DNA of 64,000 nt, from the IMG/VR virus record IMGVR_UViG_3300037847_004938, positions 2,627 to 66,626 of that record, one strand, 5' to 3'. Of the stretch, positions 608 to 64,000 are shown one piece after another (the first letter of the stretch is position 1; every line of letters begins with the position of its first letter). The DNA comes from a virus. The translations under genes and the position numbers were made by a program. The notes under the pieces are model-generated. The model worked only from the letters and a program-made list of their open reading frames with translations. It had not been told where the DNA came from and did no database searches.

Positions 608-940
608 ATGAGTACATTAATTTCAGCGTCAATTAAAGCTTCAGAATTGAAGAAGATTGACCAAACTAAAATCATTAAAGGAGAAAAAGATAATTATATA
701 CCTATCACTATTTCAGTTAATGATGAAAGTAAATTTGGTAAAAACGTTTCTATCACTATTGCACAAAGCAAAGAAGAAAGAGACACACAAACACCAAAAC
801 ATTACTTAGGTAACGGCTCAGTCATTTGGACTGACGGCAATATTGTAAAAGGTCAAAAAGATGATTCACAATCACCTATGCCAAATGCGACAAAGAGTGC
901 AGATGCGACAAGCTTGGGTGTTGATGACTTACCTTTCTGA
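608..940 (+). CDS. Putative single-stranded DNA-binding protein
   Basis: Small beta-rich protein with a flexible linker and an SSB-type acidic tail (DDLPF), next to the exonuclease. Confidence 0.65.
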   Translation: MSTLISASIKASELKKIDQTKIIKGEKDNYIPITISVNDESKFGKNVSITIAQSKEERDTQTPKHYLGNGSVIWTDGNIVKGQKDDSQSPMPNATKSADATSLGVDDLPF

Positions 941-950
941 AAGTTCAATG

Positions 951-970
951 CCCCTCGCAAGAGGGGTTTT
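951..970 (+). terminator. Intrinsic terminator
   Basis: CCCCTC-GCAA-GAGGGG-TTTT just after the SSB stop codon. Confidence 0.65.
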
Positions 971-983
971 AAACCTAAATGTA

Positions 984-1223
984 ATGGAAAATATCTTAAA
1001 GCTTATGAAAACCTTTTTGGTTATGGGCAAAATGACAGAAACAGACGATACTCCCATAGAAGAAAAAGTAAAGTATCGTCAGAGAATAGTCTTCGCTACT
1101 ATGAAGAAACTTATTCCAGAATGGAAACAACCTCCTGATTGGTATATGCTTAGTAATGAAGAAAAATTAAGAAGACTTGAATATTTAGAAAAAGTCTCAA
1201 CACCTATAAAATATGAAGAATAG
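984..1223 (+). CDS. Hypothetical protein (79 aa; start moved to ATG 984)
   Basis: The listed ORF 861..1223 overlaps SSB. ATG 984 follows the hairpin and an A-rich leader. Confidence 0.6.
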   Translation: MENILKLMKTFLVMGKMTETDDTPIEEKVKYRQRIVFATMKKLIPEWKQPPDWYMLSNEEKLRRLEYLEKVSTPIKYEE

Positions 1224-1758
1224 TATATTATATAAAATAGCAAAAATAGTCGCTGATCGTTTTCAAGTTGATCCAAAGTTCATTTTTGAAGACACTCGGC
1301 GACATGCTGTGACGGATGTCAGAGCAATATTTCACTTTATGTGTAACAAATACACCAAAGAAAGATTGCGAGTAATAGGGCAATTTAGTCATAAAATGGG
1401 CAGAAAAGAACCTCATCATCATGCAAGTATTGTTTATGCAATTAAAAAAGTAAAAAGTTTGTATGAGGTAGATAAAGATTTCAAAGAACATGTTGATGCA
1501 ATTTCAGAAGTTATAGAAAAGCAATTAACATATGATAAGTTTGTTTCAAGAAAAAATGCGACAACAATATCAAACATAATTGAAAGAATCTTTTATGAAG
1601 ATGATTACGAGTTCCTAACTTACCTAGATTTATTGGTAGATATGCTTTACGAACATAAAGACAAAGAAATAATTGAAAACTTAATTAAGACTCTGAAGGA
1701 AAACAATGAAGGGCTACATAAAGCTACACAGAACGATTCTAGATTGGGAGTGGTATAA
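1213..1758 (+). CDS. DnaA C-terminal (domain IV)-like DNA-binding protein
   Basis: RAIFHFMCNKYT..RLRVIGQF...HHASIVYAIKKV matches the DnaA domain IV HTH pattern (R..AMYL...SL..IG..F..DHTTV.HA..KI). Confidence 0.7.
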   Translation: MKNSILYKIAKIVADRFQVDPKFIFEDTRRHAVTDVRAIFHFMCNKYTKERLRVIGQFSHKMGRKEPHHHASIVYAIKKVKSLYEVDKDFKEHVDAISEVIEKQLTYDKFVSRKNATTISNIIERIFYEDDYEFLTYLDLLVDMLYEHKDKEIIENLIKTLKENNEGLHKATQNDSRLGVV

Positions 1759-2395
1759 GGACACAAACACAAAAATACTTTTCATACACTTACTGTTAAA
1801 CGCATGTTTTGATAGGTGTAAGTTTATGGGTGTTTATATGTTGCGTGGTCAATACATAACCTCAATGTCAAGACTATCCAATGAGCTTGGGTTGACAAGT
1901 AGACAATTACGTACCGCTATATCGCGATTAAAAAAAACAAAAGAAATCAATGTAAAAACTACAAATAAGTTTACTTTGTTTACTGTATGTAATTATGAAA
2001 ACTATCAATTTGAAGAGCAAAGAAACAATGCGACAATACTAACTGAATCACACAACGATTCATATTATAACGCATGTATTAAAAATGCTATTTGGTTAGA
2101 ACAAGTTTGCGTCAATCAAAAATTAAATAAAGAACAATTAGAAAAAGCTCTAGAAAAGTTTAATAATTATTTAAATCTTACAAATGATTTTAAATCAAAT
2201 TTAAAACAATACAAAAGTCATTTTATAAATTGGACTAAATACAATATAAAAACTATAGCTAAAAGTTCTGGAACATACCAATGGAAATGGAAAGGGCAAG
2301 CTGTAAAGCATGGAACTAAAACTGATTTAGAAAAAGATAAAAGTATATTTGATAAGCCTGGTTTTGAATTTAAAATTTTAAAAAATGGAAATTAA
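1706..2395 (+). CDS. Phage replication initiator / replisome organiser (wHTH)
   Basis: N-terminal GYIKLHRTILDWEWYKD...LFIHLLL...RGQYITS..RLSNELG motif typical of O-like phage initiators; lies upstream of the helicase. Confidence 0.7.
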   Translation: MKGYIKLHRTILDWEWYKDTNTKILFIHLLLNACFDRCKFMGVYMLRGQYITSMSRLSNELGLTSRQLRTAISRLKKTKEINVKTTNKFTLFTVCNYENYQFEEQRNNATILTESHNDSYYNACIKNAIWLEQVCVNQKLNKEQLEKALEKFNNYLNLTNDFKSNLKQYKSHFINWTKYNIKTIAKSSGTYQWKWKGQAVKHGTKTDLEKDKSIFDKPGFEFKILKNGN

Positions 2396-4169
2396 CGGAT
2401 ACGAAATAGACACTTATAATATATATGGGCTAGACACAAGGGCTAATAAATCGACATGCCCAAAGTGTTCGCACACACGAAAAAAGAAAACCCAAAAGTG
2501 TTTAATGTTAGATTGGAAACGAGGTCTAGGAACTTGTCAGCATTGTGGAGTTGTGTTACAATTACACAGTTACAAAAATAGACTAGAGCCAAAAGTTTAT
2601 ATAAAACCACAACCTATAAAAAAAATCACAATCATTGACAAAGTCGTCAAATGGTTTGATGGTAGAGGTATTTCTAAAAAAACTTTAGATGATTTAAAAA
2701 TATCAAATGGCAAAGAGTTTATGCCACAAGAAGGCAAAGACATGAATGTAATTCAATTCAATTATTACATTGACAACGAACTCATAAATGTAAAATATAG
2801 AGATTCAAAAAAGAACTTTAAATTATATAAAGGAGCACAAAAAACCTTTTATAACATTGATTCAATTAAAGACAAAGATACTTGTGTTATTGTAGAGGGG
2901 GAAATAGATGTAGCATCTTATCATGAGGCAGGTGTTACAAATGTAATAAGTGTACCAAATGGTTTTGTCGCGACAGGGCAGGTAAACCTAGACTACTTGA
3001 CGGATTTTTATAGTTATTTCGAGGGTATGGACAAGATCTATTTAGCTTTGGATAATGATCAAGCAGGCGAAAATGGAAAGAAAGAACTTATAAGGAGATT
3101 AGGTTCTGACAAAGTATATATAGTTGATTTACAAGAATGTAAAGACGCAAATGAATTTTTATTAGAATATGGTAAAGAAAAATTAAAAGAAACGATTATA
3201 AACGCAAAGCCATGCCCAATAGAAAATGTAGTAAGAGTTTCTGACATACTAGGTAAACTAGATAATTTTTATAAAAACGGAATCAAGAATGGGTACAAAA
3301 TTGGTCTGGATGGGTTTGATAATATTTTCTCGACATACACAAAACAATTCCTTGTTGTGACGGGGTTTCCGTCAAGTGGTAAATCAGACTTTGTAGATCA
3401 AATGACTATTGGATACAACATGATGTATGGATGGAAGACAGCATATGCTTCAACAGAAAACTTCCCACAATATTTACATGTAGATAAACTAGTGCGGAAA
3501 CTTTATGGCAGAACACCAGACTATGAAGACACTAAAAAGAAAGATTGGATAAATTGTGTAGAACATATAAACAAAAACTTTTTCTTTATTGATTATGAAG
3601 AGGGTTTTGATTTAGATAAAGTACTTACCAAAGGGGAAGAGTTAGTCAAAAGATTAGGTATAAGGTGTTTAGTTATTGACCCATATAATAAAGTAAGAGA
3701 TAAACAAAATTTAAATTTAAGTATAACAGACTACACAAATATATATTTAAATAAAATAGATAACTTTTGTAAAAAAAATGACGTAGTTTGCATCTTGGTT
3801 GCACATCCAACAAAGCCGCAGTCAGATAAAGGTAAACTTATTGAACCCACATTTTACGACGTAAAGGGTGGTGGTGAGTTCTATGACATGAGTCCACATG
3901 GTATTCTAGTTCATAGAGATTATGACCAGGGGCTTGTAAAGGTTAAAGTTTTAAAAGTAAAATTTTCTAACTTAGGTGAAAATCAAGCTCATGTAAATTA
4001 CGGGTGGAACGTAAACAACGGTAGGTATACTAAAATTAAAGAAGGTAATCCTACTTGGGACAACTCTAATTGGCTTGATTCAAAAAACAACCCTTTTGAA
4101 ATTACAAAAAGTTTAGATATAGAGTTTGAAAAATTATCACAATCATCGGAAGAAAAGCTACAATTTTAA
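2385..4169 (+). CDS. Bifunctional DNA primase-helicase (T7 gp4/Twinkle-like)
   Basis: Zn finger CPKC...CQHC; TOPRIM EGEID, SVPNG, DND; SF4 Walker A GFPSSGKS, VIDPY, VAHP. Confidence 0.92.
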   Translation: MEINGYEIDTYNIYGLDTRANKSTCPKCSHTRKKKTQKCLMLDWKRGLGTCQHCGVVLQLHSYKNRLEPKVYIKPQPIKKITIIDKVVKWFDGRGISKKTLDDLKISNGKEFMPQEGKDMNVIQFNYYIDNELINVKYRDSKKNFKLYKGAQKTFYNIDSIKDKDTCVIVEGEIDVASYHEAGVTNVISVPNGFVATGQVNLDYLTDFYSYFEGMDKIYLALDNDQAGENGKKELIRRLGSDKVYIVDLQECKDANEFLLEYGKEKLKETIINAKPCPIENVVRVSDILGKLDNFYKNGIKNGYKIGLDGFDNIFSTYTKQFLVVTGFPSSGKSDFVDQMTIGYNMMYGWKTAYASTENFPQYLHVDKLVRKLYGRTPDYEDTKKKDWINCVEHINKNFFFIDYEEGFDLDKVLTKGEELVKRLGIRCLVIDPYNKVRDKQNLNLSITDYTNIYLNKIDNFCKKNDVVCILVAHPTKPQSDKGKLIEPTFYDVKGGGEFYDMSPHGILVHRDYDQGLVKVKVLKVKFSNLGENQAHVNYGWNVNNGRYTKIKEGNPTWDNSNWLDSKNNPFEITKSLDIEFEKLSQSSEEKLQF

Positions 4170-5295: not shown

Positions 5296-5466
5296 ATGGC
5301 AATTACATCACGTGAGCGGTACATTACTAATGCATTCAACAAAATGCATGGTAAGCTTGACTCTGCTTTCGAAGATGTTTTTGACGGAGAATTCGAAGAG
5401 TGTAAGAACACAATCAATTCATTGATTTATGATTTAAAAGATTTTAAAAAATCAATGGAGACATGA
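5296..5466 (+). CDS. Hypothetical protein (56 aa; start moved to ATG 5296)
   Basis: ATG lies 1 nt after the upstream stop; ATGA overlap with the next gene. Confidence 0.6.
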   Translation: MAITSRERYITNAFNKMHGKLDSAFEDVFDGEFEECKNTINSLIYDLKDFKKSMET

Positions 5467-7343: not shown

Positions 7344-7761
7344 AAAAACTAAGATTGATGGTATAGAATTTCAATCTAAGCTAGAGTCACACATGTATCT
7401 TCTTTTAAAATCACACAAAATTCCAAGCAAATACGAAGGGACAAAATTCACAATCATTGACGGCTTTCAGTTGCCTTTTAGTTCTTATGAAAAAACTCCA
7501 AAGAAAAAGTTTCTGCATGATAAAGGTCATAAAAAAATATTACCTATAACGTACACTCCTGATTTTGTAGATACACAGAATCCACCAAGATTTATTATTG
7601 AATGCAAGGGTAATCCTAACGAAAGATTTCCTTTGGTCTGGAAGCTTTTTAAACGCTATCTAACGATAAATAATATACACGCTGATCTGTTTGTACCAAG
7701 GAATCAAAAAGATTGCTTAGAGGTTATAAGATTGATTAAGGAAAAATATTTTATTTCTTAG
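7303..7761 (+). CDS. PD-(D/E)xK endonuclease (T7 endonuclease I / DUF1064-like)
   Basis: DGIEFQSKLE...YE...ITYTPDF...IIECKG; start moved to ATG 7303. Confidence 0.8.
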   Translation: MYRRRKKRQITRHKKTKIDGIEFQSKLESHMYLLLKSHKIPSKYEGTKFTIIDGFQLPFSSYEKTPKKKFLHDKGHKKILPITYTPDFVDTQNPPRFIIECKGNPNERFPLVWKLFKRYLTINNIHADLFVPRNQKDCLEVIRLIKEKYFIS

Positions 7762-10700: not shown

Positions 10701-13700
10701 CCTGCATAGTTTTGTAAAAGCCATGCTAAATTTTTATTGCCAGTAAATATGTCAATAGGAGCGTCAAGTTGTGTTGCTATTTCTGTTGCTATACCATAAG
10801 CATCTACAATAGAATTCATTCTTTGGAATTGAAAAGCTCTATCATCTTTATCTAATGTTTGACCTTCAATTGGTCTTGTTGCAGAACCGTTTATTTCTTG
10901 GAAAAATTTTATGACAAATTTCCTGTCTTGATTACTAAGGTTTTGCATAAACTCATTGTTTCCAAACTTGTTATACTTAGATATCTTGTCTACAATTTCT
11001 TGAATCTTATTTCTTTTATTTACTTTAGCTTCTAGCTCTTTTGTTGTGTCTATATTTTCTTCTCCATCTTGTTTTTCTAAACCTTTAGTTGATTCCAATA
11101 TACTTATCTCACTAATCAATCTATCTAGACTTAAATCTATCTGGTCTGAAAGATTAAATGTTTTAGAAAACTCAGGATCTAAATCTGCTGTAAATAAACT
11201 TGCAGGGTCAATATTACCATATGAAGGTGCTATTAAAGGCTCTATCTTAGGTAGCTCTTCGTTTTTGTCTTTCTTATTTTTAACATCTCTTAAATAATAG
11301 TCTGCTGCTTTATCTTTAATTATTCTGGCTAATTCCTTTTCGCTTAAGTTCTGACCCCTTATTTTTTCGTCATTATAAACTTCCATATAGGCATCATTAT
11401 AGTATTTAGCTTTCATGTCTGGTGATAAAAACTCGTAAGCACCTTTGGTTTCAAGTCCTGAAACTATTTCATATAAAGAATTTCTAACTAAATTTAAACT
11501 TTCTAAAGCCTCTGCTCTTACAACAGAAGTTTGTGTAGTGTTTGCTATTGTACGTTCATATCCTGCCATGCTAGCTAACCCATCTAAAAATCTTATCTTA
11601 TCTTCTCTAGACATTTTTTTAATAAGGTCAGCTCTATTTTTTTCTATTCCTTGTAGGTCTATTTTAGTATCTTTCAAGTAGGTATCAGCCCATTTATAAA
11701 ATTGACTTTTCTGTATTTGTTTATCTGTTTTGCCTTGAGCTTTTTGGTCTTGTATATAAGTGTTTAAAGATTGTTTTACATTTAAAAAAGTATCTGCAAG
11801 CTTATAATACTCACCAGTACCTATATTGTTTGATATGACATTGTCGGCTGCATTACTTAAGTTTATGTTTGAGGATATTCTTAATCCACCTGCCATACCC
11901 ATTGAACTAAATGCTGTAACAGCTGATGTTTCTTTTACGATTTCTGCAAATTCATCATAACTAAATTCTCTCAATCCAAAGCCAGATTCAAACATGTATT
12001 GAAAAGTGGCAATTAAATTTTCTTCTGCAAGCTCATAACCTACCGCTTTTAATTCATATTGATAAAGCCTGTTTAAACTTGCGCTATATCCTTTGTCAAA
12101 TCTAACGGCATATTGTTCAGCTAATTTTCTAGCATTTTCTGCGGTCTGTAAATCTTTAGGAATTTTAGATCTTTTCATCCACTCGAACTGTCTAAAATAC
12201 CTCATTGTAAATGCAGCAGTTAGAGCTGTTTCTATACTTGCGTTACCTAAAGAGTATGCTCGTATAGCCCAGTCTGTTGTGTCCATCATGTTTAATTCTG
12301 TTTCTGTCAATGCAAATCCAGAATCTTCCATTCTTTCCATATTCTCTCGTCTTTGATTGAACCCATATAAGTTTTCACCATATGAATTTACCCCTACAAG
12401 AGCAACACCTAGTTTTGGATTAACCATAAAAGCTGCTATGTAAGGTAAAGACTCTGAAAAAGGTTGGTTTGCTAGAGTCATAAACTCTAATAAATCAGAT
12501 GCATCAGTAACTTTCGTAGACCACTCAGGCAAATACTCTTCCCTTAAATCCTCTGCATTTTGTTTTGTGAAAGGATTAGTTACTAAACTTAAACCAGGGC
12601 CTCCAGGCAAAGCAGGACCTCCTAACACCAAAGGTTTATTAACTATAAAGTTAGCTAAATTTCTATCCATACCTGTAGCAATCAAAGCATCTTTCATAAT
12701 TTCATTCATACTACCACCTATATCTACCATTTCGATACCTGCTCCTTGTATTAAGTTTTCAAACCACTCATATGTTCTATCTAGACTATTGGTAAACCAA
12801 TTTTTATGACCCATTATTCCATCAAATCCTGTTTCGTTTCTGTCATATAAAGCTTGTGCACGCTCAATAATTGGCGCTAAAATCCCATAATCATTTGGGT
12901 TCCCTATCTTGACATCTATCCTATCCATTCGGACATCGTTGTTTAATGATGGGTCAGTAATAATGTTATATAATTCTTCATATGTTGATGGTCTTCCATC
13001 TATAGTAATTCCATCTGTAGGAAAGTGATCATTTACATTGACACCTAAAGAACCCATATCTTCAAAAGCTACTCTAGCAAAAGGCCCGTGTAAAGGGAAC
13101 TTTTTATAGTTGTCATTTATTCTCATAGCAAAACCTACATTTCTTGATGCTAAGTCAACTCTATCTCTTAACTTCAAAGCATAATGATCCAAAGCTTTGT
13201 TTAATAAATCTCTTTTTGTATGTCTATTTCCAGAATGATCTAAAATAATATCATCTAAATTATCTGATAAGCCTAAAATTCTATGAAAACCATCAAACCC
13301 TGTGTTAATACCAAAATCATATTGATATTGTAATGTATCAAATAAACCACCCTCTTTGTCTAGTTGCATGTTTTTTGGCAACACTATCTCGACACCTTCT
13401 CCTTTTTTTGTTGATTTTATTTCATCTCTCATAGCATTGAGAAACTTCATAATTTTCATTGGGTCATATAAACGCTCATCGTTTAGAGATCTTTCTGCGC
13501 TATATAAATCTTCAACTTCAAAATCAAAACCAGGCAACTCAGCAGCAATGTCCACAATCATTCTGTTCTCTACTGGAGACAACTCTGTCATATTATAAAA
13601 ATGATCTCTCAATACATATATAGGAGCTTCAGCGTTAAGAAAATTCTCTGCTAAATTTACTATAGGTGTGTCGTTTAATGTAGCTGCACTAAACTTTACC

Positions 13701-14774: not shown

Positions 14775-16613
14775 TTATTGTAATTCTTTTAAAACCCTCA
14801 TCAAAGCATAGGCATATTTGTCGTTTGTATCTTCGTTGATAGATCCAGGTCCTTTTTTAAACTGAGAGTCTGCTTCTTCTTTAAATCCTGGATAACTTTT
14901 ATATAACTCATCATAAATCTTTTGCGCTTGTCCTGATTTAGCAAAACCGTATGTCTGTACTATGTTTGTTCTTTTCATAGAAACATCCATAGAATCATCC
15001 ACGTCTTGTTCTCCAGCTTGTTTTCTATATTCACTAGTTTCTGTTGAACCTCCAATTAAAATAACAACTCTGGACTCTCCGTCTACCTCTTTCATCATGT
15101 AACCAATTCTGTCTATAGTTTCGAATTGTCCACCGTTCATTGTTTCAAGGTTAAATTCTGTTTTATCTGTACCTGTTCCACCAAGGAATACTTTTGAAAA
15201 GTTATTTGATTGATTCTTATACAAATTAGACTCTATATCATCCGAATTATACCAATCTACATTAGGCTGTCCACCTTCTAAAATTTCACCTACATCATTC
15301 CATGTGTTAAGAGTATTTGTGTAACTCATATCTTGATTACCTAAATTTATTACATTTTGATATTTAGATCTTGTTACTTCATCAATACCTTTTTGACCTA
15401 TTGTGTCAGACATAAGTTTTTCTAAATTCACACTAGCCATAACATTAGCAGTTACGTTTTTGCTTTCTCCTTTACCTATTACAATATTATTAAATGGTTG
15501 TAAGAATTCGTTGTCTACATCTCCACCACCAGCTCTATCTTTATTCATTACATTTCTGTAATCAATATCTAATGCTGTGTATGCAGTTTGTCTTAAATAA
15601 GCACGAGCTAATTCTCTTTGGTCATCTGATATTAAGTAATTACCTTTTTCATCTGTGTCAAGTGTAAATAAATCACCTTTTCCAAATTTTATGTAATCTC
15701 CATTTTTATCAAAATACTGATCTATAACAAGAGCATCTACTTCTGATTGGCCTTTTTCACCTGTATAGCTTTTACTCCAACGAGCTCTTGCTCCTCTCGC
15801 GTCATACAAGACACCAATAAGGTCTGCGTCGGTATATCCTTCTATTAATTTTTCTATTGTATTTCTAACTTGAGGATCTGCAGCATGGTCTCTAGCGTAT
15901 TGTAATATTTGACCATTAGTTACATTTACTTGATTTGTGTCTTGCTTTGCCCTGTCTCCAATAACATTTTGTATTGTGTCTGCCCAATCATCATTATTAA
16001 ATCCAACAATGCTTTCACTGTGTGGATTTACAGAATCATGTAAAGACCTTTCAAGTTTTCCTAATCTTAAAATTCCATCTTTATCGTAGTATTGATAATG
16101 ATGTGTAAAGCTAAGTCCATTACCGCCATCAGTCAGATGTGTCCATCTTTTAACATTAGAATTCATGTTTCTAGCCATACCAAAATAACCTGACTCAAAC
16201 TGGTCAAGCTCAGCTCCACTTATTTCACCGTCTTCAAATCTTTTCTTTTTATCCTCATAATTTTTTCCTATGATTTCTGTGCTGTTCACAATCATATTGG
16301 CCTCAGAAATAGCAGCATTTGTAATTCTTGTTGCTTCTGACCTAGATATTTCACCTCTTGCATTTGCTTGATGTGCAGCAGATATTCTTTGTCTTAATAA
16401 AACTCCTGATTCATTAAACATTTTATCTGCATCATTCAGCCCAGTTAGACTAATTTTATCTAGCTCTGCTCCTAAATTTGCAAGCTCTTCCGCCCTTGCA
16501 GCTCTAACTTGACCTTTAATCTGATTGACTTGAGCCATGCCTTGTGTGTATTGCACAGCTAAATTTTGCAAATTACTTTGTGGTGCTTGATATAATGTTT
16601 GTCCGTTTGCCAT
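14775..16613 (-). CDS. Putative internal virion / ejection protein
   Basis: Lies between the small and giant ejection-type genes; no Cys seen; Gln/Ala-rich N-terminus. Confidence 0.55.
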   Translation of the reverse strand: MANGQTLYQAPQSNLQNLAVQYTQGMAQVNQIKGQVRAARAEELANLGAELDKISLTGLNDADKMFNESGVLLRQRISAAHQANARGEISRSEATRITNAAISEANMIVNSTEIIGKNYEDKKKRFEDGEISGAELDQFESGYFGMARNMNSNVKRWTHLTDGGNGLSFTHHYQYYDKDGILRLGKLERSLHDSVNPHSESIVGFNNDDWADTIQNVIGDRAKQDTNQVNVTNGQILQYARDHAADPQVRNTIEKLIEGYTDADLIGVLYDARGARARWSKSYTGEKGQSEVDALVIDQYFDKNGDYIKFGKGDLFTLDTDEKGNYLISDDQRELARAYLRQTAYTALDIDYRNVMNKDRAGGGDVDNEFLQPFNNIVIGKGESKNVTANVMASVNLEKLMSDTIGQKGIDEVTRSKYQNVINLGNQDMSYTNTLNTWNDVGEILEGGQPNVDWYNSDDIESNLYKNQSNNFSKVFLGGTGTDKTEFNLETMNGGQFETIDRIGYMMKEVDGESRVVILIGGSTETSEYRKQAGEQDVDDSMDVSMKRTNIVQTYGFAKSGQAQKIYDELYKSYPGFKEEADSQFKKGPGSINEDTNDKYAYALMRVLKELQ

Positions 16614-17562: not shown

Positions 17563-18342
17563 TTACAAGTAGCTCTTAACAGCTTCACTACCTACTGAGA
17601 ATAACTCTGCATTACCAGTAGATCCATTACTCAATGTCACACTGCAATAGTATCCTCTAATACCTCTAGATTCTGGCGATGGATCCTTTGCAACAAACAT
17701 AAAATTACCGACAGACGGGCTAAAGGTACTTGAGTTGTCGGGTGCACTAGTAATTTGCACGACATCACGTGTAAGAGTATCTGTAGCGTCATTGTCTAAT
17801 ATATCGTTAATAGTTCCAACTAATCTAGTCTGTCCAGAATTAAAATACAAATTATCTACACCGCTCGTTAATATTTGGTTCGATACGTCTAAATTAAATC
17901 TGTATCTTGTGCTGCTTACAATCTCTACTAATTGACCAATACCCACAATAGTAAGCTCATTAAAATTAAGTCTACTACCTGATTGTCTTATATAACCTGA
18001 TCTATAACTTTCATAAGCTTCAAATTGTGTCTCACTTATAGAACCACTTTCCATATCTGTAGATAAAACAGCACTCCAGTTTTGTTGTGATGTTTCTAAT
18101 ATTAAGTTTTTAAATAATTTAACATCTGAAGGAGATTTGTTTACTGATAAAGTAATTTCACAACCATCTGTTTGATTATAAAATCTTGTTCTTTGAGAGT
18201 TTGAATCATGCTCATACAAATTTCCACTATCAAAAGTATAAAACTTTGTACCTACACGTGTCATCCATTCAGGTGTGTATGAGTGAAACGAAGTCCATCC
18301 GCTCACTCCCTCATCATATGTTATTGTTTTTTTATCTGGCAT
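17563..18342 (-). CDS. C-terminal part of a crAss-like muzzle / tail stabilisation protein
   Basis: GWTSFHSYTPEWM...FYTF..GNLYEH...K.FKNL.LE...RGYY...ELFSV resembles, from recall, the C-terminus of this family. Confidence 0.6.
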   Translation of the reverse strand: MPDKKTITYDEGVSGWTSFHSYTPEWMTRVGTKFYTFDSGNLYEHDSNSQRTRFYNQTDGCEITLSVNKSPSDVKLFKNLILETSQQNWSAVLSTDMESGSISETQFEAYESYRSGYIRQSGSRLNFNELTIVGIGQLVEIVSSTRYRFNLDVSNQILTSGVDNLYFNSGQTRLVGTINDILDNDATDTLTRDVVQITSAPDNSSTFSPSVGNFMFVAKDPSPESRGIRGYYCSVTLSNGSTGNAELFSVGSEAVKSYL

Positions 18343-34349: not shown

Positions 34350-34910
34350 TTAATTTAAAATTGTACATATATCTCTTGTCATCATTCTGTATAGTTTTTC
34401 ATTATTAATTTCAAACTCATACTCACTGTCTTTTCTAAAATTAACTTTACTCCCTTCTTCTACTCCAAGCTCCTTTAGTTTTTTGTTTGAATATACAACT
34501 ACACCTGTATTTTCCTCTAAACCTTCTTGATGTAAATATTTATTTTCTAATTCAGTGGGTTTTACAAAACAGTAATCATCTACTGAATGCCACTTGTTCC
34601 CGTCATGATATAAATAAAATTGATATGGATCTATTATGTATATATCCCCTTTAAAATAATTAGGAGACTTCCTTGGCCTACCTTTCATGTCATAATATAT
34701 TCTAAATACATTATGATGAACAACCAACGTGTCTCCTTTCTTTATTTCTCCTTTATAATATGATGGGATTTCTATAACCTCTGCAAATCTATTGACATGC
34801 ATATGGTTTGATATATCGCTGTTCACAATCATTTTCTGACCAGCAAGCTCTATTTCGTTATTGTAGTGTGTTCCTTTAGCTTTTATTAAAAAATAAAAAG
34901 GAGATTTCAT
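34350..34910 (-). CDS. Double GroES-like fold protein (phage co-chaperonin-like)
   Basis: Two repeats ending IKKGDTLVVHHNVF and GVEEGSKVNF...EFEI..EKLYRM. Confidence 0.55.
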   Translation of the reverse strand: MKSPFYFLIKAKGTHYNNEIELAGQKMIVNSDISNHMHVNRFAEVIEIPSYYKGEIKKGDTLVVHHNVFRIYYDMKGRPRKSPNYFKGDIYIIDPYQFYLYHDGNKWHSVDDYCFVKPTELENKYLHQEGLEENTGVVVYSNKKLKELGVEEGSKVNFRKDSEYEFEINNEKLYRMMTRDICTILN

Positions 34911-49162: not shown

Positions 49163-49185
49163 CGTTTTTTATTTTATGTTCACAA

Positions 49186-49647
49186 TCATTGTTTTTTAAA
49201 AATGCTCGTTGCTTTTTCTGTCGTCCTTCCTCCGAAATAAGCTAGAACAACAGCCATCATCACCTTCTCAAAAGTGTCATTCCAAGTAACACCTATGTTA
49301 AAAGGAATTGATTCTACGCTGTCTAATATGCCTGCTAATGAAAAAATAGTTATACACCAAACTAAAACCAGCGGACGCACATTCTTCGAAAGCCATGAAT
49401 CGCTAGCAGCGTCTGCTTGCCATCTGTTAGTTATAGATTCAATCTCTTTATTCTGTTGTTCGTAAATTAATTGTTGAAGTTTAATTTTATCTTCATTACT
49501 TACATCAGATTTACCTATTGCTGCAATTGCTTCTTTAGGACTTGTAACACCTTGTAACACACTACCAAGAGTTGGGTTTATCATACCAGCAGCTCCTAAT
49601 AATAGTTTACCTACAGTTGTGTTTTTAAATTTCTTCTTGTCGCTCAT
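49186..49647 (-). CDS. Holin (3TM / GTA-holin-like)
   Basis: RWQAD..SDSWLSKNVRPLVL...AYFGGR; adjacent to the endolysin. Confidence 0.75.
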   Translation of the reverse strand: MSDKKKFKNTTVGKLLLGAAGMINPTLGSVLQGVTSPKEAIAAIGKSDVSNEDKIKLQQLIYEQQNKEIESITNRWQADAASDSWLSKNVRPLVLVWCITIFSLAGILDSVESIPFNIGVTWNDTFEKVMMAVVLAYFGGRTTEKATSIFKKQ

Positions 49648-53745: not shown

Positions 53746-53747
53746 AA

Positions 53748-56173: not shown

Positions 56174-56385
56174 TAGGTTTGTGGTAATTTTGGTGCCCTA
56201 TTATAATTTACATTAGGTTTCTTTTCATCATCAACATTCCATTTGGTAATTACCTGACCTTCTAGGTCTATTACAGTATATCCTTGTTTTGCTAAAAGCT
56301 TTATCGCTTTATTGATTTCTTTTGCTTGTTCCCTAAAATGACTGAAAATTTGATTTTCAAAAGGGTGGTGATCATGTATTGCCAT
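56173..56385 (-). CDS. Hypothetical protein between groEL and groES
   Basis: Coupled to both neighbours. Confidence 0.65.
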   Translation of the reverse strand: MAIHDHHPFENQIFSHFREQAKEINKAIKLLAKQGYTVIDLEGQVITKWNVDDEKKPNVNYNRAPKLPQT

Positions 56386-56387
56386 AA

Positions 56388-57992: not shown

Positions 57993-58151
57993 AAAAAATC
58001 AATTTAATTATATTCTTCTTTTTATTCTTTTTAATATATCTATATATATAATATATTTATGCTTGTCGTTTTTTTACACACCAGAAAATTATGTTCAAAA
58101 AAAGCGCTGTAAGTACCTAACAATCAGTCATTTGTGTTTGACACCTGTTTG

Positions 58152-58319: not shown

Positions 58320-59185
58320 ATTTAATGTGGCGCATTCCTGTAAATAGTTACACACTAATTATATTAGTTAGATCTATTTTACTTTTTAGGCCACGAGATA
58401 TACCTAGCATTTGGGCAATACTACGTTATACACACATACTATCTTATACAAAACTACTTTTTTTTACCCTACCCCCTATCCGCCACCTTATAGCTTTCTC
58501 AAACTTTTTAGCTTTTTTGTACTCGTTGTAGGCTTTCTCATATCTCATCGAAGCGGACTCGGGGTCAAGCCCCTCGGGGTTTTATATTTTCTCTCTCATT
58601 CACAATCATTCGATAGCCAACCCTATCCCCTTGTTATTATCAAACAAACTATCACCATTGGTCTCGCGTCTTCCATGAATATGGTCAAGTGCCAAGCTTT
58701 GAATCGTTCCGATTCGTGGTGGTTCCTCACCACACTTCCCATTCGAACGCGGTTCGCTTCGCTCGCTTTGCCCTCACTTCGCAATGTACTTTGTGTTAGT
58801 CAACACAAGTTTTGCCTGCCGCAAAACACGCTGACATTGCTTCTCGACTCGCGCAGATATATTCACTTCGTTCATTTCTGCGAGGGAACCTCTGCTCGTC
58901 TCGGTGTATTGCCGCTAAATATATATATACAAGTTTGGCATTCACCCATCACAATCATCAACACAACTGTTACCGTTCATTTGTATTCCGTTCTTTCATA
59001 TATTTTTTATATGTAAACATTTACAATATTCAAATACAAGTTTGTAAATTCTCTAAGTACATTCTCGTATACACTCGAATGCCCTTCGGGTTGGTTCAAA
59101 TTTTTATTCTAAAAATTATGACATCAATACTTGTTCATTTAAAACTTCTATTTGGTCAGCGCCCCATGTTTAATTTAAAAAATAA
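58320..59185. other. Non-coding divergence junction (candidate genome end, packaging or origin region)
   Basis: Transcription polarity switches here; cluster of GC-rich hairpins; + strand becomes C/A-rich downstream. Confidence 0.5.
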
Positions 59186-59189: not shown

Positions 59190-59816
59190 ATGAAAACTTC
59201 TTACAAATCGGTTCCAGTTGTTTGTTCAATAATTGGTACCAAAACTCGTAAATCTATGTACATCTACAATGTTAAATCATTAAATGGAGATACAGTCTAT
59301 CAAGATAGATATGTACCTGTCAAATGGGGTAACAACGTAACTATTGAATGGGAACGCACAACTGATGAGTTCGTTCAGTTTCCACTATCATTGGCTCGTC
59401 CAATTATGATAATTCCTAAATTCAATGAAATTGGTGTATCAAACATATCACAATCACGTGTCAATGGTAAAGTTCAATCTTACTACGAGATGACTGATAG
59501 ATACATTGTCTACATACCTATGTGGTTATTTCTACCACAGAAAGATGACAATGGTAACAACAAACCAAATACAGGTTTCAAAACTAAATACACTAAAGTG
59601 TTACCTAAAGCAGATGATGATTTATTTATCAATGATGATTCACCTTACACAATTGCTGAAGATATTGCTTACAAATCAGAGCAAGACCTAGCATTTGATT
59701 ACAGACCATCTGCTGACAAAATGTTATCAGGTTTAGAATTCGAAAATGATTCTCTAGCCCAATGGGAAATAGATAATCCAGAGTTTGCTAATGACGATAA
59801 CTTACTGTTTAATTAA
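59190..59816 (+). CDS. Early hypothetical protein (208 aa; start moved to ATG 59190)
   Basis: AT-rich leader before MKTSYK; acidic C-terminus. The upstream part of the listed ORF runs through the hairpin region. Confidence 0.7.
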   Translation: MKTSYKSVPVVCSIIGTKTRKSMYIYNVKSLNGDTVYQDRYVPVKWGNNVTIEWERTTDEFVQFPLSLARPIMIIPKFNEIGVSNISQSRVNGKVQSYYEMTDRYIVYIPMWLFLPQKDDNGNNKPNTGFKTKYTKVLPKADDDLFINDDSPYTIAEDIAYKSEQDLAFDYRPSADKMLSGLEFENDSLAQWEIDNPEFANDDNLLFN

Positions 59817-59948: not shown

Positions 59949-60254
59949 ATGAGTAAATCATTACAGTCACCCGTAGGCGTGACATTCACAATCAAGATGG
60001 AAACCGATAAGGCTTTCATAGTAGAAGACTTGCAAATTATGGGCAAGCCGTACATCTCAAGTACTAACCTACCTAAAATGTACGTCGACAATATCAAGAC
60101 TGACAAAGACGGTGTTACAACTGCTTCTGTTGAATCTTGGATTATCGAACAGAGATACGATGAATTGTATTCTGAAGACGCTAACATCAATGCTCAAAAA
60201 TTACTGAGCAAAAAGTTTAGTTCTGCCGAGGTCGAGCAATTGCCTTGGGATTAG
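59949..60254 (+). CDS. Early hypothetical protein
   Basis: ATG after a TTATTATT leader; IKMETDKAF motif; ends EQLPWD. Confidence 0.65.
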   Translation: MSKSLQSPVGVTFTIKMETDKAFIVEDLQIMGKPYISSTNLPKMYVDNIKTDKDGVTTASVESWIIEQRYDELYSEDANINAQKLLSKKFSSAEVEQLPWD

Positions 60255-60334
60255 TTAACAAATACGAGTTGAATCTGACTAAGTTTCGTAATTGTAGCAA
60301 CGCGTCGCTACTTCTCGTTTTTATTTTCACAATC

Positions 60335-60508
60335 ATGACAATGTCTAAGTACATCATCAAAAATATGGTTGACAGTCTGACTCAGACTAAAGACGACAAC
60401 GTTGAATCTCTAGCTAAGCTAGATACTTTTGACGAACAAGTAAGAATTGTAAGAAGATTTCTTATAAATCAACGTAAGTTTTATATCAACCGTCAACAGG
60501 ATGATTAG
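60335..60508 (+). CDS. Early hypothetical protein (57 aa)
   Basis: First ATG in the listed ORF; overlaps a TCACAATCA motif. Confidence 0.55.
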   Translation: MTMSKYIIKNMVDSLTQTKDDNVESLAKLDTFDEQVRIVRRFLINQRKFYINRQQDD

Positions 60509-60689: not shown

Positions 60690-60856
60690 CAATGCGTAAT
60701 AACCTTGAGTTCACATTACGTATAGTCAATGATTTGGACAAGCTAAGAACGGACACGGTAGCTAGCATTAAATCCGTAAAAAGATAGATAACCTAGCGTT
60801 CACTATCACTTGTCCTTATTGTTGCATTTTACTAACAAATTGTTTAAATTTATATT

Positions 60857-61156
60857 ATGAAAACTAAAACACTTCCGACAGGTATCGTTACTACTCAACG
60901 CAAAGTAGGTAAAAAAATTATTATTGACGTCAAACGTCCAAAAACATCAAAGACTGTAACACGCTTACAAAAACTAGTGGTTGGTTTTTTGTTTAGTTTG
61001 GCTTATCTCGGAATATGTGGTTCGACTTATCTCGTCTACATGGACCTCTTTTCAAGAGCTCTTGGGTTGATATTTCTTCCACTATTCCTTGGTAAGATTT
61101 ATGTCATCACAATCATGGGATATCACATGTTTCATGAGTTTAAAAGAAATTGGTAA
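60857..61156 (+). CDS. Early two-TM membrane protein
   Basis: Basic N-terminus followed by two hydrophobic segments. Confidence 0.65.
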   Translation: MKTKTLPTGIVTTQRKVGKKIIIDVKRPKTSKTVTRLQKLVVGFLFSLAYLGICGSTYLVYMDLFSRALGLIFLPLFLGKIYVITIMGYHMFHEFKRNW

Positions 61157-61158
61157 TT

Positions 61159-61383
61159 ATGGAAACATTTATTAAAGAACAGCTTATACATCTAGTCGAC
61201 AAAGTTCTATCGTACAACCGCGACATAGAACAAAAACATTTCGAAGAACAAATGGGTGTCGACCCAATCGACATTGACCGTGTTGAATACGAACGTATAC
61301 TAAACGAATCAAATCATATATTCAAATATATATATGCTCTTGAAAGATTAATCATACAAATAAAAGACAATGAAAACATTTAA
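61159..61383 (+). CDS. Early hypothetical protein
   Basis: ATG lies 2 nt after the upstream stop. Confidence 0.6.
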   Translation: METFIKEQLIHLVDKVLSYNRDIEQKHFEEQMGVDPIDIDRVEYERILNESNHIFKYIYALERLIIQIKDNENI

Positions 61384-61537
61384 ATGTTCAATATGCGAAG
61401 AAGACGTAACAGAGTATGGTAACAATCCACAACCAATTATACTTCAACAAGGTAAACAATGTTGTGACGCATGCAATAACAAGTATGTAATACCAGCTCG
61501 TATGTTTTTACGCGAACTACTAAATAACAAACAATGA
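61370..61537 (+). CDS. 55-aa Zn-finger protein (CSIC...GNNP.P...CCDACN..VIPAR)
   Basis: Translated by hand; motif common in small phage proteins. Confidence 0.75.
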   Translation: MKTFKCSICEEDVTEYGNNPQPIILQQGKQCCDACNNKYVIPARMFLRELLNNKQ

Positions 61538-61570
61538 AACATATTTCTCACTTTACTAAATTAATAATCA

Positions 61571-62707
61571 ATGACATCAAAACACGATACGACAAACATC
61601 GCAGAGCTACTGATGAATCTTGTGCCAATACAAAGCACAAGTTACAAAACAGAGCTAATGCAAAAAGCAATTGACAATTGGCTATATCATAATGACTTAG
61701 GCTACACTAAAGACAAATATGGTAACATATATGTGACCAAAGGTCATGCAGATTTATATCCAACTATGGTATGCCATATTGATACGGTGCACGACATCAA
61801 TAATCACGTAACAGCACATAAGACATCAAGCGACATCATATATGCTATTGACCAATCTACAGGTCAACAATATGGTACAGGTGGAGATGACAAAGTTGGT
61901 ATTGCTATTACAATGACAATGCTAAAACACTTTGACAACTTCAAAGCAGTATTCTTTCTTGACGAGGAGGTTGGTTGTGTTGGTTCATCAAAATGTGATT
62001 CATCATTCTTTGACGACTCAACCATTGTGCTCGAATGTGACAGGCGTGGTAGTTCAGACTTCGTCAACAAAATTGGCTCAACAAGATTATACAGCAAAAA
62101 ATTCAGTAAACTAATTAAACCCATACTAAAAAAATGGGGTCGCTCTGAATGTACAGGTGGTATCACAGACGTTGGCGAAATAGCTAGAGTAAACAAAGTT
62201 ATGACAGCAAATATGTCATGTGGTTATCACAATCCACATTCTAACTCAGAAACAATTGATATCGCACAAGTAATCAATACATACAATTTATGTGTTGACT
62301 TATTCAATCTTACAATCGACAAACGTTATGCATATCAATCATTATCAGATCGTCAAGAGTCATACGGTTACACAGGTCGTATGTACGGTGGTCACTTTCA
62401 CAATCACACACCCCGTATAAATCCTTACTATACTAATGACAAAGAAGAATCAGCAGAACCAATGTACTTTGACGACGACTTATATGAAGTCGACGGATTG
62501 TATGAAGACAATGTGGTTACATCATTGCCAGACGATTGTCCTATGTGTAATCAAACAGAACTTGAATACGATGAAATGACAGGCGAAGTGTGGTGTTATT
62601 CATGCGGTGCATATTTACAAGCAGAAAACTTAAACTCTTTTCAAAATGAACAAAATCAATCAAATAAAAACGACGACAGACAGGGTACTTTCACCTTTGA
62701 GCGTTAA
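61571..62707 (+). CDS. M28/M20-clan Zn peptidase with C-terminal Zn ribbon
   Basis: CHIDTVH, GGDDKVG, DEEVGCVGS, ECDRRG, GYHNPHS; CPMC...CYSC. Confidence 0.85.
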   Translation: MTSKHDTTNIAELLMNLVPIQSTSYKTELMQKAIDNWLYHNDLGYTKDKYGNIYVTKGHADLYPTMVCHIDTVHDINNHVTAHKTSSDIIYAIDQSTGQQYGTGGDDKVGIAITMTMLKHFDNFKAVFFLDEEVGCVGSSKCDSSFFDDSTIVLECDRRGSSDFVNKIGSTRLYSKKFSKLIKPILKKWGRSECTGGITDVGEIARVNKVMTANMSCGYHNPHSNSETIDIAQVINTYNLCVDLFNLTIDKRYAYQSLSDRQESYGYTGRMYGGHFHNHTPRINPYYTNDKEESAEPMYFDDDLYEVDGLYEDNVVTSLPDDCPMCNQTELEYDEMTGEVWCYSCGAYLQAENLNSFQNEQNQSNKNDDRQGTFTFER

Positions 62708-64000
62708 TACATCATTTTTATATCATGTATGGCATAAGTTGTTAAACAACAATGTTAATGGTCTGACCTATACACAAAAAGAATTTATCAAACATATTCT
62801 CAAAACAATAATAATAATCAGACAAGACACTAACCTAGTTGGTATATCAATTGTCGATATACAAATGCATATATCAAACTATATATTCACACTACATTCT
62901 GTAGCAAACTTAAAATTCAATAATATTGCAGAACTATCACGGATAAATAATTTCAATCCCGTTATGGTAAATCCTAAAAGTGGCCAACTACGCATACAAA
63001 AATTCATACGTCTTGCATGCAAATACATCTTAACTGAAAGAGATATCAGAAAAGAAACAAAACATTGGGAGGCAGTATGTGGTAATACAATAAACAACAC
63101 AGATATTGACAGAGGTTTTTGTCGCTATTGGTCTAAAAAAATTCTACTGTTTCAATACAGACTATATGATACTCTATCAAAAAACGCACAACAAATAGTT
63201 CATCTTGCAGAACAAAAACAATACAAACTATCACGTCAAGAAAAAATATGTAATGATTTTTCATTGTATCGTACAAGGTCATCTAGCATATCTATACATG
63301 AAAAACCAATACGTAAAGGAGATGATTACAGTACTGTCATTGGTTATGACTCGCATATGCTAAAATATCTATCATATGCAAATGTTTTCAGTCAACAACC
63401 AAATGTAAACAGATTACTATCAGAATCACTATTACAAGACATTTCAAATGCACTTTACAATGCAAGTAACAACTGTCCAGAAAAAATTAAATCAGACAAA
63501 AAACGATACGCAGAATACAAATTCAACCTAAGACTTATGCATGAATTTGCTTTACACAGTTCCAGAATACCAGCCATGCAAAACCTTGACAGACACTTCA
63601 CAATCAACAAAGACGGTAACATGTCATACACACCTGCAAAGAAACCCACATATCTTACGAGCAATGGTAATTGGTTATCAGGTGCAGACCGCATGATAAC
63701 TAAGTTTGGTAAAGGTGTACGCAAGTTATACGCTACATATCCAGATAAAATAGAAGAAACTATTCTCGAATACATATGTAACCATTTGAAATCAAAACAT
63801 ACATTCATGGCTAAGCTTGAGGTAGTTGAAGGAGAAGAATTACGTCGTTGGTATCATGAAGACACATACAATCGTAGTGTCAATACATCAACACTCGGGT
63901 CATCATGTATGCGTTATCCAAAATGTCAACCTTATCTTGACTTATATGTAGAAAACCCAGACAAAATCAAAATGCTTATTGCACATGATGACGATGGTTT
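62646..64000 (+). CDS. Large early protein with an 'SCMR' domain, 3'-truncated by the window edge
   Basis: The frame from ATG 62646 stays open to the window end (translated by hand); GEELRRWYHE...TLGSSCMRY...YLDLYVENPDKIKML. Confidence 0.7.
   Translation, partial: MNKINQIKTTTDRVLSPLSVNTSFLYHVWHKLLNNNVNGLTYTQKEFIKHILKTIIIIRQDTNLVGISIVDIQMHISNYIFTLHSVANLKFNNIAELSRINNFNPVMVNPKSGQLRIQKFIRLACKYILTERDIRKETKHWEAVCGNTINNTDIDRGFCRYWSKKILLFQYRLYDTLSKNAQQIVHLAEQKQYKLSRQEKICNDFSLYRTRSSSISIHEKPIRKGDDYSTVIGYDSHMLKYLSYANVFSQQPNVNRLLSESLLQDISNALYNASNNCPEKIKSDKKRYAEYKFNLRLMHEFALHSSRIPAMQNLDRHFTINKDGNMSYTPAKKPTYLTSNGNWLSGADRMITKFGKGVRKLYATYPDKIEETILEYICNHLKSKHTFMAKLEVVEGEELRRWYHEDTYNRSVNTSTLGSSCMRYPKCQPYLDLYVENPDKIKMLIAHDDDG

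What the first reader, a model, noticed from the sequence alone, without database searches (positions are those of the whole stretch)
867..63606. Genome-wide, strictly strand-polarised motif (W)TCACAATCA with a density gradient from the presumed genome end
Seen: 19 exact CACAATCA copies on + (867, 2627, 4138, 5409, 7449, 13553, 16287, 21811, 34824, 40781, 49181, 58601, 58950, 59449, 59987, 60328, 61108, 62399, 63599), 17 of them preceded by WT. I saw no TGATTGTG on +. A rough composition estimate predicts only about 1-2 per strand. The motif stays on + whatever the gene direction. It occurs in all three frames of + genes (SQS, xTI, HNH), in non-coding DNA, and in - genes as (M/L)IV using a GTG codon, so selection appears to act on the DNA rather than the protein. 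Spacing is 0.3-0.8 kb just after the 58.5 kb junction, ~1.2-2 kb further on and in the replication module, and 3-13 kb in the late genes. Known analogies are one-strand programmed nicks in T5, phiKMV-like and tf/LUZ24-like phages, and polar Chi or KOPS sites. Inference: an undescribed cis-acting system for virion DNA nicking, DNA entry/translocation, or protection of the first-injected end from host nucleases, read by a phage or host protein.
Basis: partly seen in the sequence, partly recalled or inferred. Interest (0 to 1): 0.88.

Follow-up and report, generated by a model that had tools for sequence, protein, structure and literature searches.

The report
Strand-polar phage motif, probable nick sites
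A nine-letter DNA word occurs about twenty times on only one strand of this marine phage genome and its relatives, is kept by selection even inside genes, and most resembles the sites where some Pseudomonas phages carry programmed single-strand nicks of unknown purpose.

Summary
CACAATCA occurs 19 times on + and 0 times on - in the window, and 21:0 in the 66.6-kb phage genome. TCACAATCA is the genome's commonest 9-mer; a Markov-4 model expects 0.61 copies. None of 300 synonymous-codon shuffles reached the count, either genome-wide or in the opposite-strand late block. In 80 related IMG/VR loci the count is 303:0.

Inside one gene, 33 of 33 homologues spell Phe-Thr-Ile only as TTC-ACA-ATC, while neighbouring invariant residues vary freely at synonymous sites. 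So selection acts on the nucleotides.

Cultured structural relatives carry a one-base variant, CACTATCA: Maribacter phage Panino 24:2, Cellulophaga phages phi38:1 15:1 and Calle_1 18:1.

The anatomy is an exact asymmetric 9-mer on one strand whatever the gene direction, with a density gradient from the early-gene side and a one-base dialect between relatives. This matches the nick-associated motif of Pseudomonas phages tf and LUZ24.

Most likely these are programmed nick sites (about 0.45). Nicking was not shown and no nickase was identified. The scan has noted similar one-strand words in other phages.

The parts
867..874 (+). motif copy (tTCACAATCAc), 6 nt after ATG 861
   Evidence: kept in 2 of 2 homologous loci
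2627..2634 (+). motif copy inside the primase/helicase gene
   Evidence: kept in 0 of 25 homologous loci, so a lineage-specific gain
4138..4145 (+). motif copy near the 3' end of the primase/helicase gene
5409..5416 (+). motif copy 46 nt upstream of ATG 5463 (preceded by AA, not WT)
   Evidence: kept in 2 of 34 homologous loci
7449..7456 (+). motif copy inside the DUF1064 nuclease-like gene, coding F-T-I
   Evidence: kept in 42 of 43 homologous loci; 33 of 33 genes use only TTC-ACA-ATC
13553..13560 (+). motif copy antisense in the 2340-aa late gene (preceded by TC)
16287..16294 (+). motif copy antisense in a late gene
21811..21818 (+). motif copy antisense in the 1798-aa virion gene
   Evidence: kept in 0 of 1 homologous locus
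34824..34831 (+). motif copy antisense in the 186-aa gene upstream of the terminase
   Evidence: kept in 1 of 1 homologous locus
40781..40788 (+). motif copy antisense in the 2511-aa tail-fibre gene
49181..49188 (+). motif copy, intergenic in the late block
58601..58608 (+). first motif copy after the divergent junction
58950..58957 (+). motif copy in the early region
59449..59456 (+). motif copy in the early region
59987..59994 (+). motif copy 2 nt before an in-frame ATG (59997)
60328..60335 (+). motif copy whose last base is the A of ATG 60335
61108..61115 (+). motif copy in the early region
62399..62406 (+). motif copy inside the peptidase-like gene
63599..63606 (+). motif copy inside the early gene, coding the conserved F-T-I of RHFTIN
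   Evidence: kept in 3 of 3 homologous loci
18225..18232 (+). possible variant copy CACTATCA. The window holds five such copies (18225, 37427, 39895, 59383, 60801); the genome count is 6:0
   Evidence: uncertain, because the same word is only 7:4 in the 80 related loci

Best explanation
The word 5'-(T)TCACAATCA(Y)-3' is a cis-acting DNA site read in one orientation. It is most likely the recognition site of a site- and strand-specific nicking activity that leaves programmed single-strand interruptions in the + strand of the virion DNA, as in Pseudomonas phages tf, LUZ24 and Rembedalsseter. Shown: the word is real, exact, strictly polar, conserved across a large clade, held by nucleotide-level selection inside genes, and graded in density from the early-gene side. 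Inferred by analogy only: that the site is cut, that the cut persists in the virion, and what it does. The function I think most likely: nicks concentrated in the early-gene part of the genome act as swivels or entry points during ejection, early expression or recombinational replication. Whether that part enters the cell first is not shown. The function of such nicks is not known in any phage.
For: 1. The motif is an exact asymmetric 9-11-mer, 21:0 in the genome and far above codon-preserving nulls.
2. It stays on one strand whatever the gene direction. This includes 6 copies antisense in the 50-kb late block, against about 1.2 expected.
3. Polarity holds in relatives: 303:0 in 80 loci, of which 73 have at least one copy; 52:2 in five longer records; 16:0 in a 64.6-kb related contig.
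4. Selection acts on the nucleotides. Copies also turn over between lineages: 0 of 25 and 2 of 34 homologous loci keep two of the target's copies, while 42 of 43 keep another. This suggests selection for an array rather than for fixed gene-linked sites.
5. Relatives carry a one-base dialect, CACTATCA, in Panino, phi38:1 and Calle_1. tf and LUZ24 differ in the same way, TACTGTGAC against TACTATGAC.
6. The density profile resembles that of the proven nick sites. Target: 2.0, 0.68 and 0.12 per kb. Panino: 1.26, 0.30 and 0.14. tf: 0.70, 0.36 and 0.12.
7. tf sites are 14:0 and LUZ24 sites 9:0. tf also has two convergent transcription units, and its nicks lie in the top strand (passages read).
8. 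In Rembedalsseter's group, 88% of 542 motif copies lie within coding sequences and are not tied to expression (section read). Here, 84% of copies in related loci lie inside ORFs.
9. Weak hint: 9 of 104 ends of whole IMG/VR contigs lie within 30 nt of a copy, against about 1.5% for random cuts.
Against: There is no physical evidence of a nick. All 23 runs found are held as contigs, which cannot show strand ends, and single contigs bridge six copies, as any DNA assembly would. No nickase was identified, and no target protein is present in all motif-bearing phages and absent from all motif-less ones. DUF1064, the nearest candidate, is also in motif-less elemoA and is absent from tf and LUZ24. In phi38:1, 8 of 13 early-block copies lie within 30 nt upstream of a gene start, against 5% by chance, which looks more like an expression signal. 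The contig-end hint may only reflect the motif being a conserved island in variable sequence, and four of the nine ends fall at one site.
Confidence: 0.45

Rival explanations
1. Transcription signal. The word would be a compact promoter or start site for phage-directed transcription. The same-direction copies in the late block would keep rightward transcription going and help pull the genome into the cell, as transcription does for T7 and N4 (recalled).
For: In phi38:1, 8 of 13 copies lie within 30 nt upstream of gene starts, and one lies 47 nt upstream of a tRNA. Several target copies abut an ATG (59987, 60328). CACTATCA shares CACTAT with the T7 promoter core read. The density is highest in the early genes. 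Panino's late-block copies are evenly spaced (CV 0.19; 0.00025 of random placements are as even, a post hoc test).
Against: Only about 11 nt are conserved, with no second element. In the target, 1 of 15 copies, and in Panino 2 of 17, lie within 30 nt of a start, which is near chance. No T7-type RNA polymerase was found (PF00940: 0 of 4 records, but the control rang nowhere, so this is inconclusive). No D-x-D-x-D signature occurs in any giant protein. The 2340-aa protein resembles large polyvalent proteins, not polymerases, and has no PDB match. The relatives that use ordinary Bacteroidota-type promoters (elemoA, TATCTTTGCA; consensus recalled) lack the word.
Confidence: 0.18
2. The word is a polar signal for a host DNA enzyme. 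It could be a Chi-like site that tames the host AddAB/RecBCD nuclease on one end of linear or rolling-circle DNA, or a KOPS-like translocase guide.
For: Strict polarity and over-representation are the hallmarks of Chi and KOPS (established knowledge). No phage-encoded reader follows the motif. The phages of two related host genera share one word, and the uncultured clade has a one-base variant.
Against: The motif is 9-11 nt with a fixed flanking T, longer than known Chi sites (5-8 nt, recalled). With RecBCD/AddAB polarity (recalled), a + strand site is read by an enzyme coming from the right. If the left end lies at the divergent junction, which is not shown, such an enzyme would meet the sparse end first. 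Other Cellulophaga phages (phi46:3 3:2, phi10:1 0:1 for CACTATCA) are not enriched. Host genomes were not tested.
Confidence: 0.1
3. The word is a replication signal read on single-stranded DNA. Examples are a preferred primase start on the - strand template (a primer starting AC..., as with T7 gp4, recalled) or a polar fork signal.
For: The target's primase/helicase is T7 gp4-like, with Toprim plus a DnaB/RecA-like domain. One-strand polarity fits a single lagging-strand template, and fork movement would then run with late transcription.
Against: The motif family occurs with different replication modules: gp4-like in the target, but an annotated DNA polymerase/primase (PF09250) in phi38:1, with only weak primase similarity (24%). 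Phi10:1 has the closest cultured primase (43.6%) and lacks the word. Nine-base specificity would be unusual for a primase (recalled). The gradient is unexplained.
Confidence: 0.08
4. The word is a binding or modification site without cleavage. Examples are a strand-specific base modification, or a directional signal for the packaging or ejection machinery.
For: The motif family follows the virion-module lineage (target clade, Panino, phi38:1/Calle) rather than one replication module.
Against: MW202828 has the closest terminase (62%) and portal (52%) but lacks the word, and so does elemoA. No methyltransferase or modification gene tracks it.
Confidence: 0.1

Closest known systems
Nick-associated motif of Pseudomonas phages tf, LUZ24, PaP3 and Rembedalsseter (TACT/RTGMC, WACTRTGAC). 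Sources: PMC3517423, passages read; PMC11780129, section 3.9 read.
   Same: Exact asymmetric 9-mer. All copies lie on one strand (tf 14:0, LUZ24 9:0). There are 9-24 copies per genome. Both groups are podoviruses with two convergent gene blocks, and copies are denser toward the early-gene end. Relatives differ by one base in the word. Most copies lie inside coding sequence. Register match xACTATxA between TACTATGA (LUZ24) and CACTATCA (Panino), 6 of 8 letters, which could be chance.
   Different: The word, the phage lineage and the host phylum (Bacteroidota) all differ. Nicks are proven there by ligase-repairable fragments, primer extension and nanopore coverage drops, but are not tested here. 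No gene is known to be shared: DUF1064 is absent from tf and LUZ24.
Localized nicks of T5/BF23 and of phiKMV-like phages (CGACxxxxxCCTACTCCGG), as described in PMC3517423 and PMC3604761 (passages read).
   Same: One-strand, site-specific interruptions at fixed words. Their function is unknown.
   Different: There are fewer sites (about 4-5 major ones). The phiKMV motif is longer and intergenic. T5's distribution is not a comparable gradient.
T7-type single-subunit RNA polymerase promoters
   Same: They share a CACTAT core with the Panino/phi38:1 word. All T7 promoters point one way.
   Different: T7 promoters are conserved over about 23 bp and lie upstream of genes on the only coding strand. 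Here only about 11 nt are conserved, most target copies are intragenic, some are antisense to genes, and no such polymerase was found (inconclusive).
Chi and KOPS polar sequences of bacterial chromosomes
   Same: Short, over-represented, strand-polar words read by a moving enzyme.
   Different: Those are host-genome features of 5-8 nt. Here, host enrichment is untested and the word is longer.
One-orientation EcoP15I sites of T7
   Same: All copies of an asymmetric word lie in one orientation.
   Different: That case is explained by avoidance of head-to-head sites and coding-strand bias, without over-representation. Here the word is about 30-fold over-represented.

Membership tests
Nick-associated one-strand motif arrays (tf/LUZ24 type) | Exact asymmetric word of about 9 nt, many copies, far above chance | tested here: met
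   19 copies of the 9-mer against 0.61 expected; one-mismatch variants have at most 4 copies; 0 of 300 codon shuffles reach the count
Nick-associated one-strand motif arrays (tf/LUZ24 type) | All copies on one strand, regardless of gene orientation | tested here: met
   21:0 in the genome, with 6 copies antisense in the late block; 303:0 in 80 loci
Nick-associated one-strand motif arrays (tf/LUZ24 type) | Uneven distribution, concentrated toward the early-gene end | tested here: met
   2.0, 0.68 and 0.12 per kb, against 0.70, 0.36 and 0.12 for tf; the physical end of this genome is not known
Nick-associated one-strand motif arrays (tf/LUZ24 type) | Conserved across related phages, with small changes of the word | tested here: met
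   CACAATCA in the uncultured clade; CACTATCA in Panino, phi38:1 and Calle_1
Nick-associated one-strand motif arrays (tf/LUZ24 type) | A physical, ligase-repairable nick at the word in virion DNA | not testable with these tools
   All 23 runs are kept as contigs; laying 4 of them shows no molecule ends by design
T7-type phage promoter | About 23 bp conserved from -17 to +6 | tested here: not met
   Information is confined to positions -2 to +8 in 252 distinct contexts
T7-type phage promoter | Phage-encoded single-subunit RNA polymerase | tested here: inconclusive
   PF00940 gave no match in 4 records, but no control genome rang either; the own genome was not searched with it
T7-type phage promoter | Placed upstream of genes in the sense direction | tested here: inconclusive
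   Met in phi38:1 (8 of 13 within 30 nt); not met in the target (1 of 15) or Panino (2 of 17)
Chi / KOPS | Over-represented and strand-skewed in the host chromosome, and read by a host enzyme | not tested
   No host genome handle could be obtained; the only bacterial assembly reached (a MAG titled Maricaulis sp., which holds the related phage contig; probably not a host) has 57:60
Primase recognition site (T7 gp4 type) | The word follows the primase lineage | tested here: not met
   The motif family is present with a different annotated primase type in phi38:1 and absent from phi10:1, which has the closest cultured primase

The most novel reading that the evidence does not exclude
The word is not a nick site but a directional 'keep going' signal. 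In this reading, an array of re-start sites all points away from the end that enters first, dense there and then regularly spaced (about every 5 kb in Panino). A motor would use the array to draw the whole genome into the cell against the orientation of the late genes. The motor could be RNA polymerase with an unknown phage factor, or an ejected translocase.
Probability: 0.12. Interest if true: 0.85.

Novelty: new member of a known kind. Interest (0 to 1): 0.6.

Why it matters
Programmed one-strand nicks in phage DNA have been known for about 50 years without a known function (PMC11780129, section 3.9 read). If this word marks nicks, the phenomenon extends to abundant marine phages of Flavobacteriia, a different host phylum. 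The word recurs in at least 80 environmental contigs. It would also come with cultured, non-pathogenic model systems (phi38:1 and Calle on Cellulophaga, Panino on Maribacter) in which the function could be tested. The synonymous-site signal is unusually clean evidence that the array itself is under selection. If it is not a nick site, it is an unexplained polar signal that would be at least as interesting. In my searches (listings only, passages) I found no report of the word in these phages.

Tried and rejected
1. The 2340-aa protein has no Pfam, PHROG or PDB sequence match. It has no D-x-D-x-D motif. Its protein-atlas neighbours are large polyvalent proteins (LPD38, LPD3, PBECR3, MuF_C). Rejected for lack of support.

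2. The early 471-aa protein as a tyrosine-recombinase- or telomere-resolvase-like nickase. This was a weak atlas lead (score 0.94, 107-110 shared features). The model of a 545-aa homologue (pLDDT 79.3) gave no Foldseek match at E <= 0.001; the best was a GNAT acetyltransferase at 8.5e-3. The family is absent from Panino. Rejected.

3. A different iteron clusters beside its gene, and homologues occur in motif-less phages. Unlikely.

4. DUF1064 nuclease as the nickase. It is present in all four motif-bearing genomes compared, but also in elemoA, and it is absent from tf and LUZ24. Left open as a weak candidate only.

5. Read-end test. All runs are contigs. Laying X1, X3, X4 and X6 gave no table of molecule ends, and contigs both bridge copies and stop near them. 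Not informative either way.

6. Host Chi/KOPS test. My one genome-contig scan had returned only a related phage contig inside a MAG. Not done.

7. An analogous polar word in elemoA, phi46:3, Gundel and phi10:1. None was found. The top k-mers there are host-type promoter boxes, tRNA T-loops or coding bias.

8. Gene-start association in the 80 loci. There is no excess at 0-40 nt. The excess at 160-320 nt is probably one inherited site counted many times.

Full report
**The observation**

All 19 listed positions are exact CACAATCA on the + strand, and the - strand has none. Dinucleotide shuffles gave a mean of 3.0 for both strands together, and 0 of 100 reached 19. In the printed contexts, 17 of 19 copies are preceded by WT.

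The window is bases 2627-66626 of a single 66,626-base virus record. That record holds two more + copies and still none on -. TCACAATCA (19 copies) is the commonest 9-mer of the genome and TCACAATCAT (13) the commonest 10-mer. No one-mismatch variant of the 9-mer has more than 4 copies. A Markov-4 model expects 0.61 copies.

- Shuffling synonymous codons within each of 73 genes left a mean of 4.26 + copies (largest 8), against 21 observed.
- In the late block it left 1.15 (largest 2), against 6 observed.
- 0 of 300 shuffles reached either count.
- Shuffling codon order gave the same answer.

**The genome**

PHROG and Pfam scans show a podovirus-type layout.

The + block runs from about window 58.4 kb to the contig end, continues from the contig start, and ends at window 7761. 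It holds:
- small early genes;
- a DnaA-domain-IV protein;
- a DnaD-like loader;
- a T7 gp4-like primase/helicase;
- MazG;
- exonucleases;
- a DUF1064 nuclease-like protein.

The - block (7751-58000) holds the portal, the large terminase, virion proteins of 1798, 2340 and 2511 residues, lysis genes and GroEL.

The record has no end repeats and is rated complete. Its two ends cut one gene that is a single 538-601-residue ORF in relatives. The contig is therefore an arbitrary cut of a circular map, and the physical ends are unknown.

Counted from the divergent junction, the motif density is 2.0 per kb in the first 3 kb, 0.68 per kb in the rest of the + block and 0.12 per kb in the late block.

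**Relatives**

A primase/helicase search found 80 IMG/VR loci with 68-87% identity, all oriented like the window. Together they hold 303 copies on + and 0 on - in 768 kb, and 73 of the 80 have at least one copy.

Five longer records give 52 copies in the motif orientation and 2 in the other. A 64.6-kb related phage contig, filed inside a MAG titled Maricaulis sp., gives 16:0.

A position matrix from 252 distinct contexts shows information only at (T)T-CACAATCA-(Y, not G). Nothing in the flanks is conserved.

**Selection acts on the DNA**

The copy at 7449 lies in the DUF1064 gene and codes Phe-Thr-Ile. Among 36 distinct homologous genes, all 33 with F-T-I spell it TTC-ACA-ATC.

Invariant neighbours vary freely at synonymous sites:

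| Residue | Codon counts |
|---|---|
| Lys | AAA 22, AAG 14 |
| Tyr | TAC 19, TAT 17 |
| Glu | GAA 21, GAG 15 |
| Phe | TTT 26, TTC 10 |

Copies also turn over. Only 9 of the 21 copies had any homologous locus in my set. The copy at 2627 is kept in 0 of 25 homologous loci and the copy at 5409 in 2 of 34, while 7449 is kept in 42 of 43. Related genomes keep similar numbers and spacing at partly different places. This points to selection for an array.

**A dialect in cultured phages**

A de novo k-mer screen of structural relatives found CACTATCA, one base different:
- Maribacter phage Panino: 24:2, against 3.45 expected.
- Cellulophaga phage phi38:1: 15:1.
- Calle_1: 18:1.

Panino's copies are dense in the first 14 kb of its + block. 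They then recur about every 5 kb on the same strand through the opposite-strand late block (CV of gaps 0.19; 0.00025 of random placements are as even; a post hoc test).

ElemoA, phi46:3, Gundel_1, phi10:1 and MW202828 have neither word nor an equivalent. MW202828 has the closest terminase (62%). Instead it has 14 copies of a palindrome upstream of early genes.

**What it is most like**

The tf paper (PMC3517423, passages read) describes:
- 14 proven nicks, all in the top strand;
- an exact 9-mer found only on that strand;
- 11 of the 14 nicks in the left half;
- a podovirus with two convergent transcription units;
- relatives whose main site differs by one base.

I confirmed tf 14:0 and LUZ24 9:0, and the graded spacing, directly.

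The Rembedalsseter paper (PMC11780129, section 3.9 read) adds three points. Nanopore depth falls to zero on one strand at all 13 sites. Sixty related phages are enriched for the word. And 88% of 542 copies lie in coding sequence, which the authors take as arguing against a role in expression.

Every one of these sequence-level features is met here. The one defining feature I could not test is the nick itself, because all 23 public runs that hold this phage are kept only as contigs. Laying four of them shows nothing about strand ends.

A weak hint comes from contig ends. Of 104 ends of 52 whole IMG/VR contigs that have a copy, 9 lie within 30 nt of one, against about 1.5% for random cuts. However, four of these fall at one site, and a conserved island in variable sequence could also break assemblies there.

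**Results against the nick reading, and the rivals**

In phi38:1, the word sits in short A-rich spacers. Eight of 13 early-block copies lie within 30 nt upstream of a gene start (5% by chance), and one lies 47 nt before a tRNA. The word also shares CACTAT with the T7 promoter core. This favours an expression signal.

But in the target and in Panino the association is at chance (1 of 15 and 2 of 17). Only about 11 nt are conserved. I also found no phage RNA polymerase:
- PF00940 gave no match, though the control was silent too.
- The giant proteins have no D-x-D-x-D motif.
- The 2340-residue protein looks like a large polyvalent protein.

A primase site is unlikely. The motif family occurs with different primase types, and phi10:1, which has the closest cultured primase, lacks it.

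A host Chi- or KOPS-like role remains open because I could not reach host genomes.

It could be a small unrecognised phage protein or a host enzyme.

**Verdict**

The feature is real, strongly selected and conserved. It is best filed as a new member, in marine Flavobacteriia podophages, of the known kind 'one-strand nick-associated motif array'. Nicking is inferred by analogy, not shown.

Earlier notes of this scan report similar one-strand words in other phages and reached the same nearest analogue. They came after my own reading, and I did not test them.

Noticed in passing
window 885-2034 and genome 952-1558 (just before the window): A second one-strand word, ATGCGAC(A), occurs 9 times on + and once on -. 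The copies cluster around the DnaA-domain-IV gene (1213-1758) and the DnaD-like loader (1706-2395), and some lie a few bases after a CACAATCA copy. Relatives show tandem ATGCGACC-type repeats at the same place (L053, L025). This is a candidate replication-origin iteron set.
   Followed up: partly
L001/L002 (MW202828.1) 43748-55166: The closest named structural relative lacks the motif. Instead it has 14 copies of a palindrome (core GTGTCGTTAACGACAC) in its early block, mostly 20-35 nt upstream of ATG codons.
   Followed up: partly
window 62646-64000 plus genome 1-720: The 471-aa ORF that runs off the window end and the following 246-aa ORF correspond to one 538-601-aa ORF in relatives. The contig ends therefore lie inside a gene, with a small discrepancy at the junction. 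The AlphaFold model of a homologue has only weak GNAT-like matches.
   Followed up: partly
L084-L087 (G006:C66, NZMJ01000013.1): A 64.6-kb contig in a MAG titled Maricaulis sp. is a near-complete relative of this phage (GroEL 81% identical, 34% G+C). It is probably mis-binned.
   Followed up: partly
window 7751-14773 (-): The 2340-aa protein has no Pfam, PHROG or PDB sequence match. Its protein-atlas neighbours carry large-polyvalent-protein domains (LPD38 in 100% of one cluster; LPD3, PBECR3 and MuF_C in others).
   Followed up: partly
L095-L098 (Panino) 20765-55765: Eight same-strand CACTATCA copies in the opposite-strand late block are spaced 3.2-6.3 kb apart. This is far more even than random.
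   Followed up: partly
window 18225, 37427, 39895, 59383, 60801; genome 570: The variant CACTATCA is 6:0 in this genome, mostly preceded by C rather than T. It is only 7:4 in the 80 related loci, so it may be chance.
   Followed up: partly
window 60692-60822 and 50163-58003: One contig of run X6 replaces 60692-60822 (beside the tRNA) with 17 other letters. Contigs of X3 and X4 join 50163 to 58003 with 12 other letters but only 21 letters on the shorter side. These are possible strain variants and are weakly supported.
   Followed up: no
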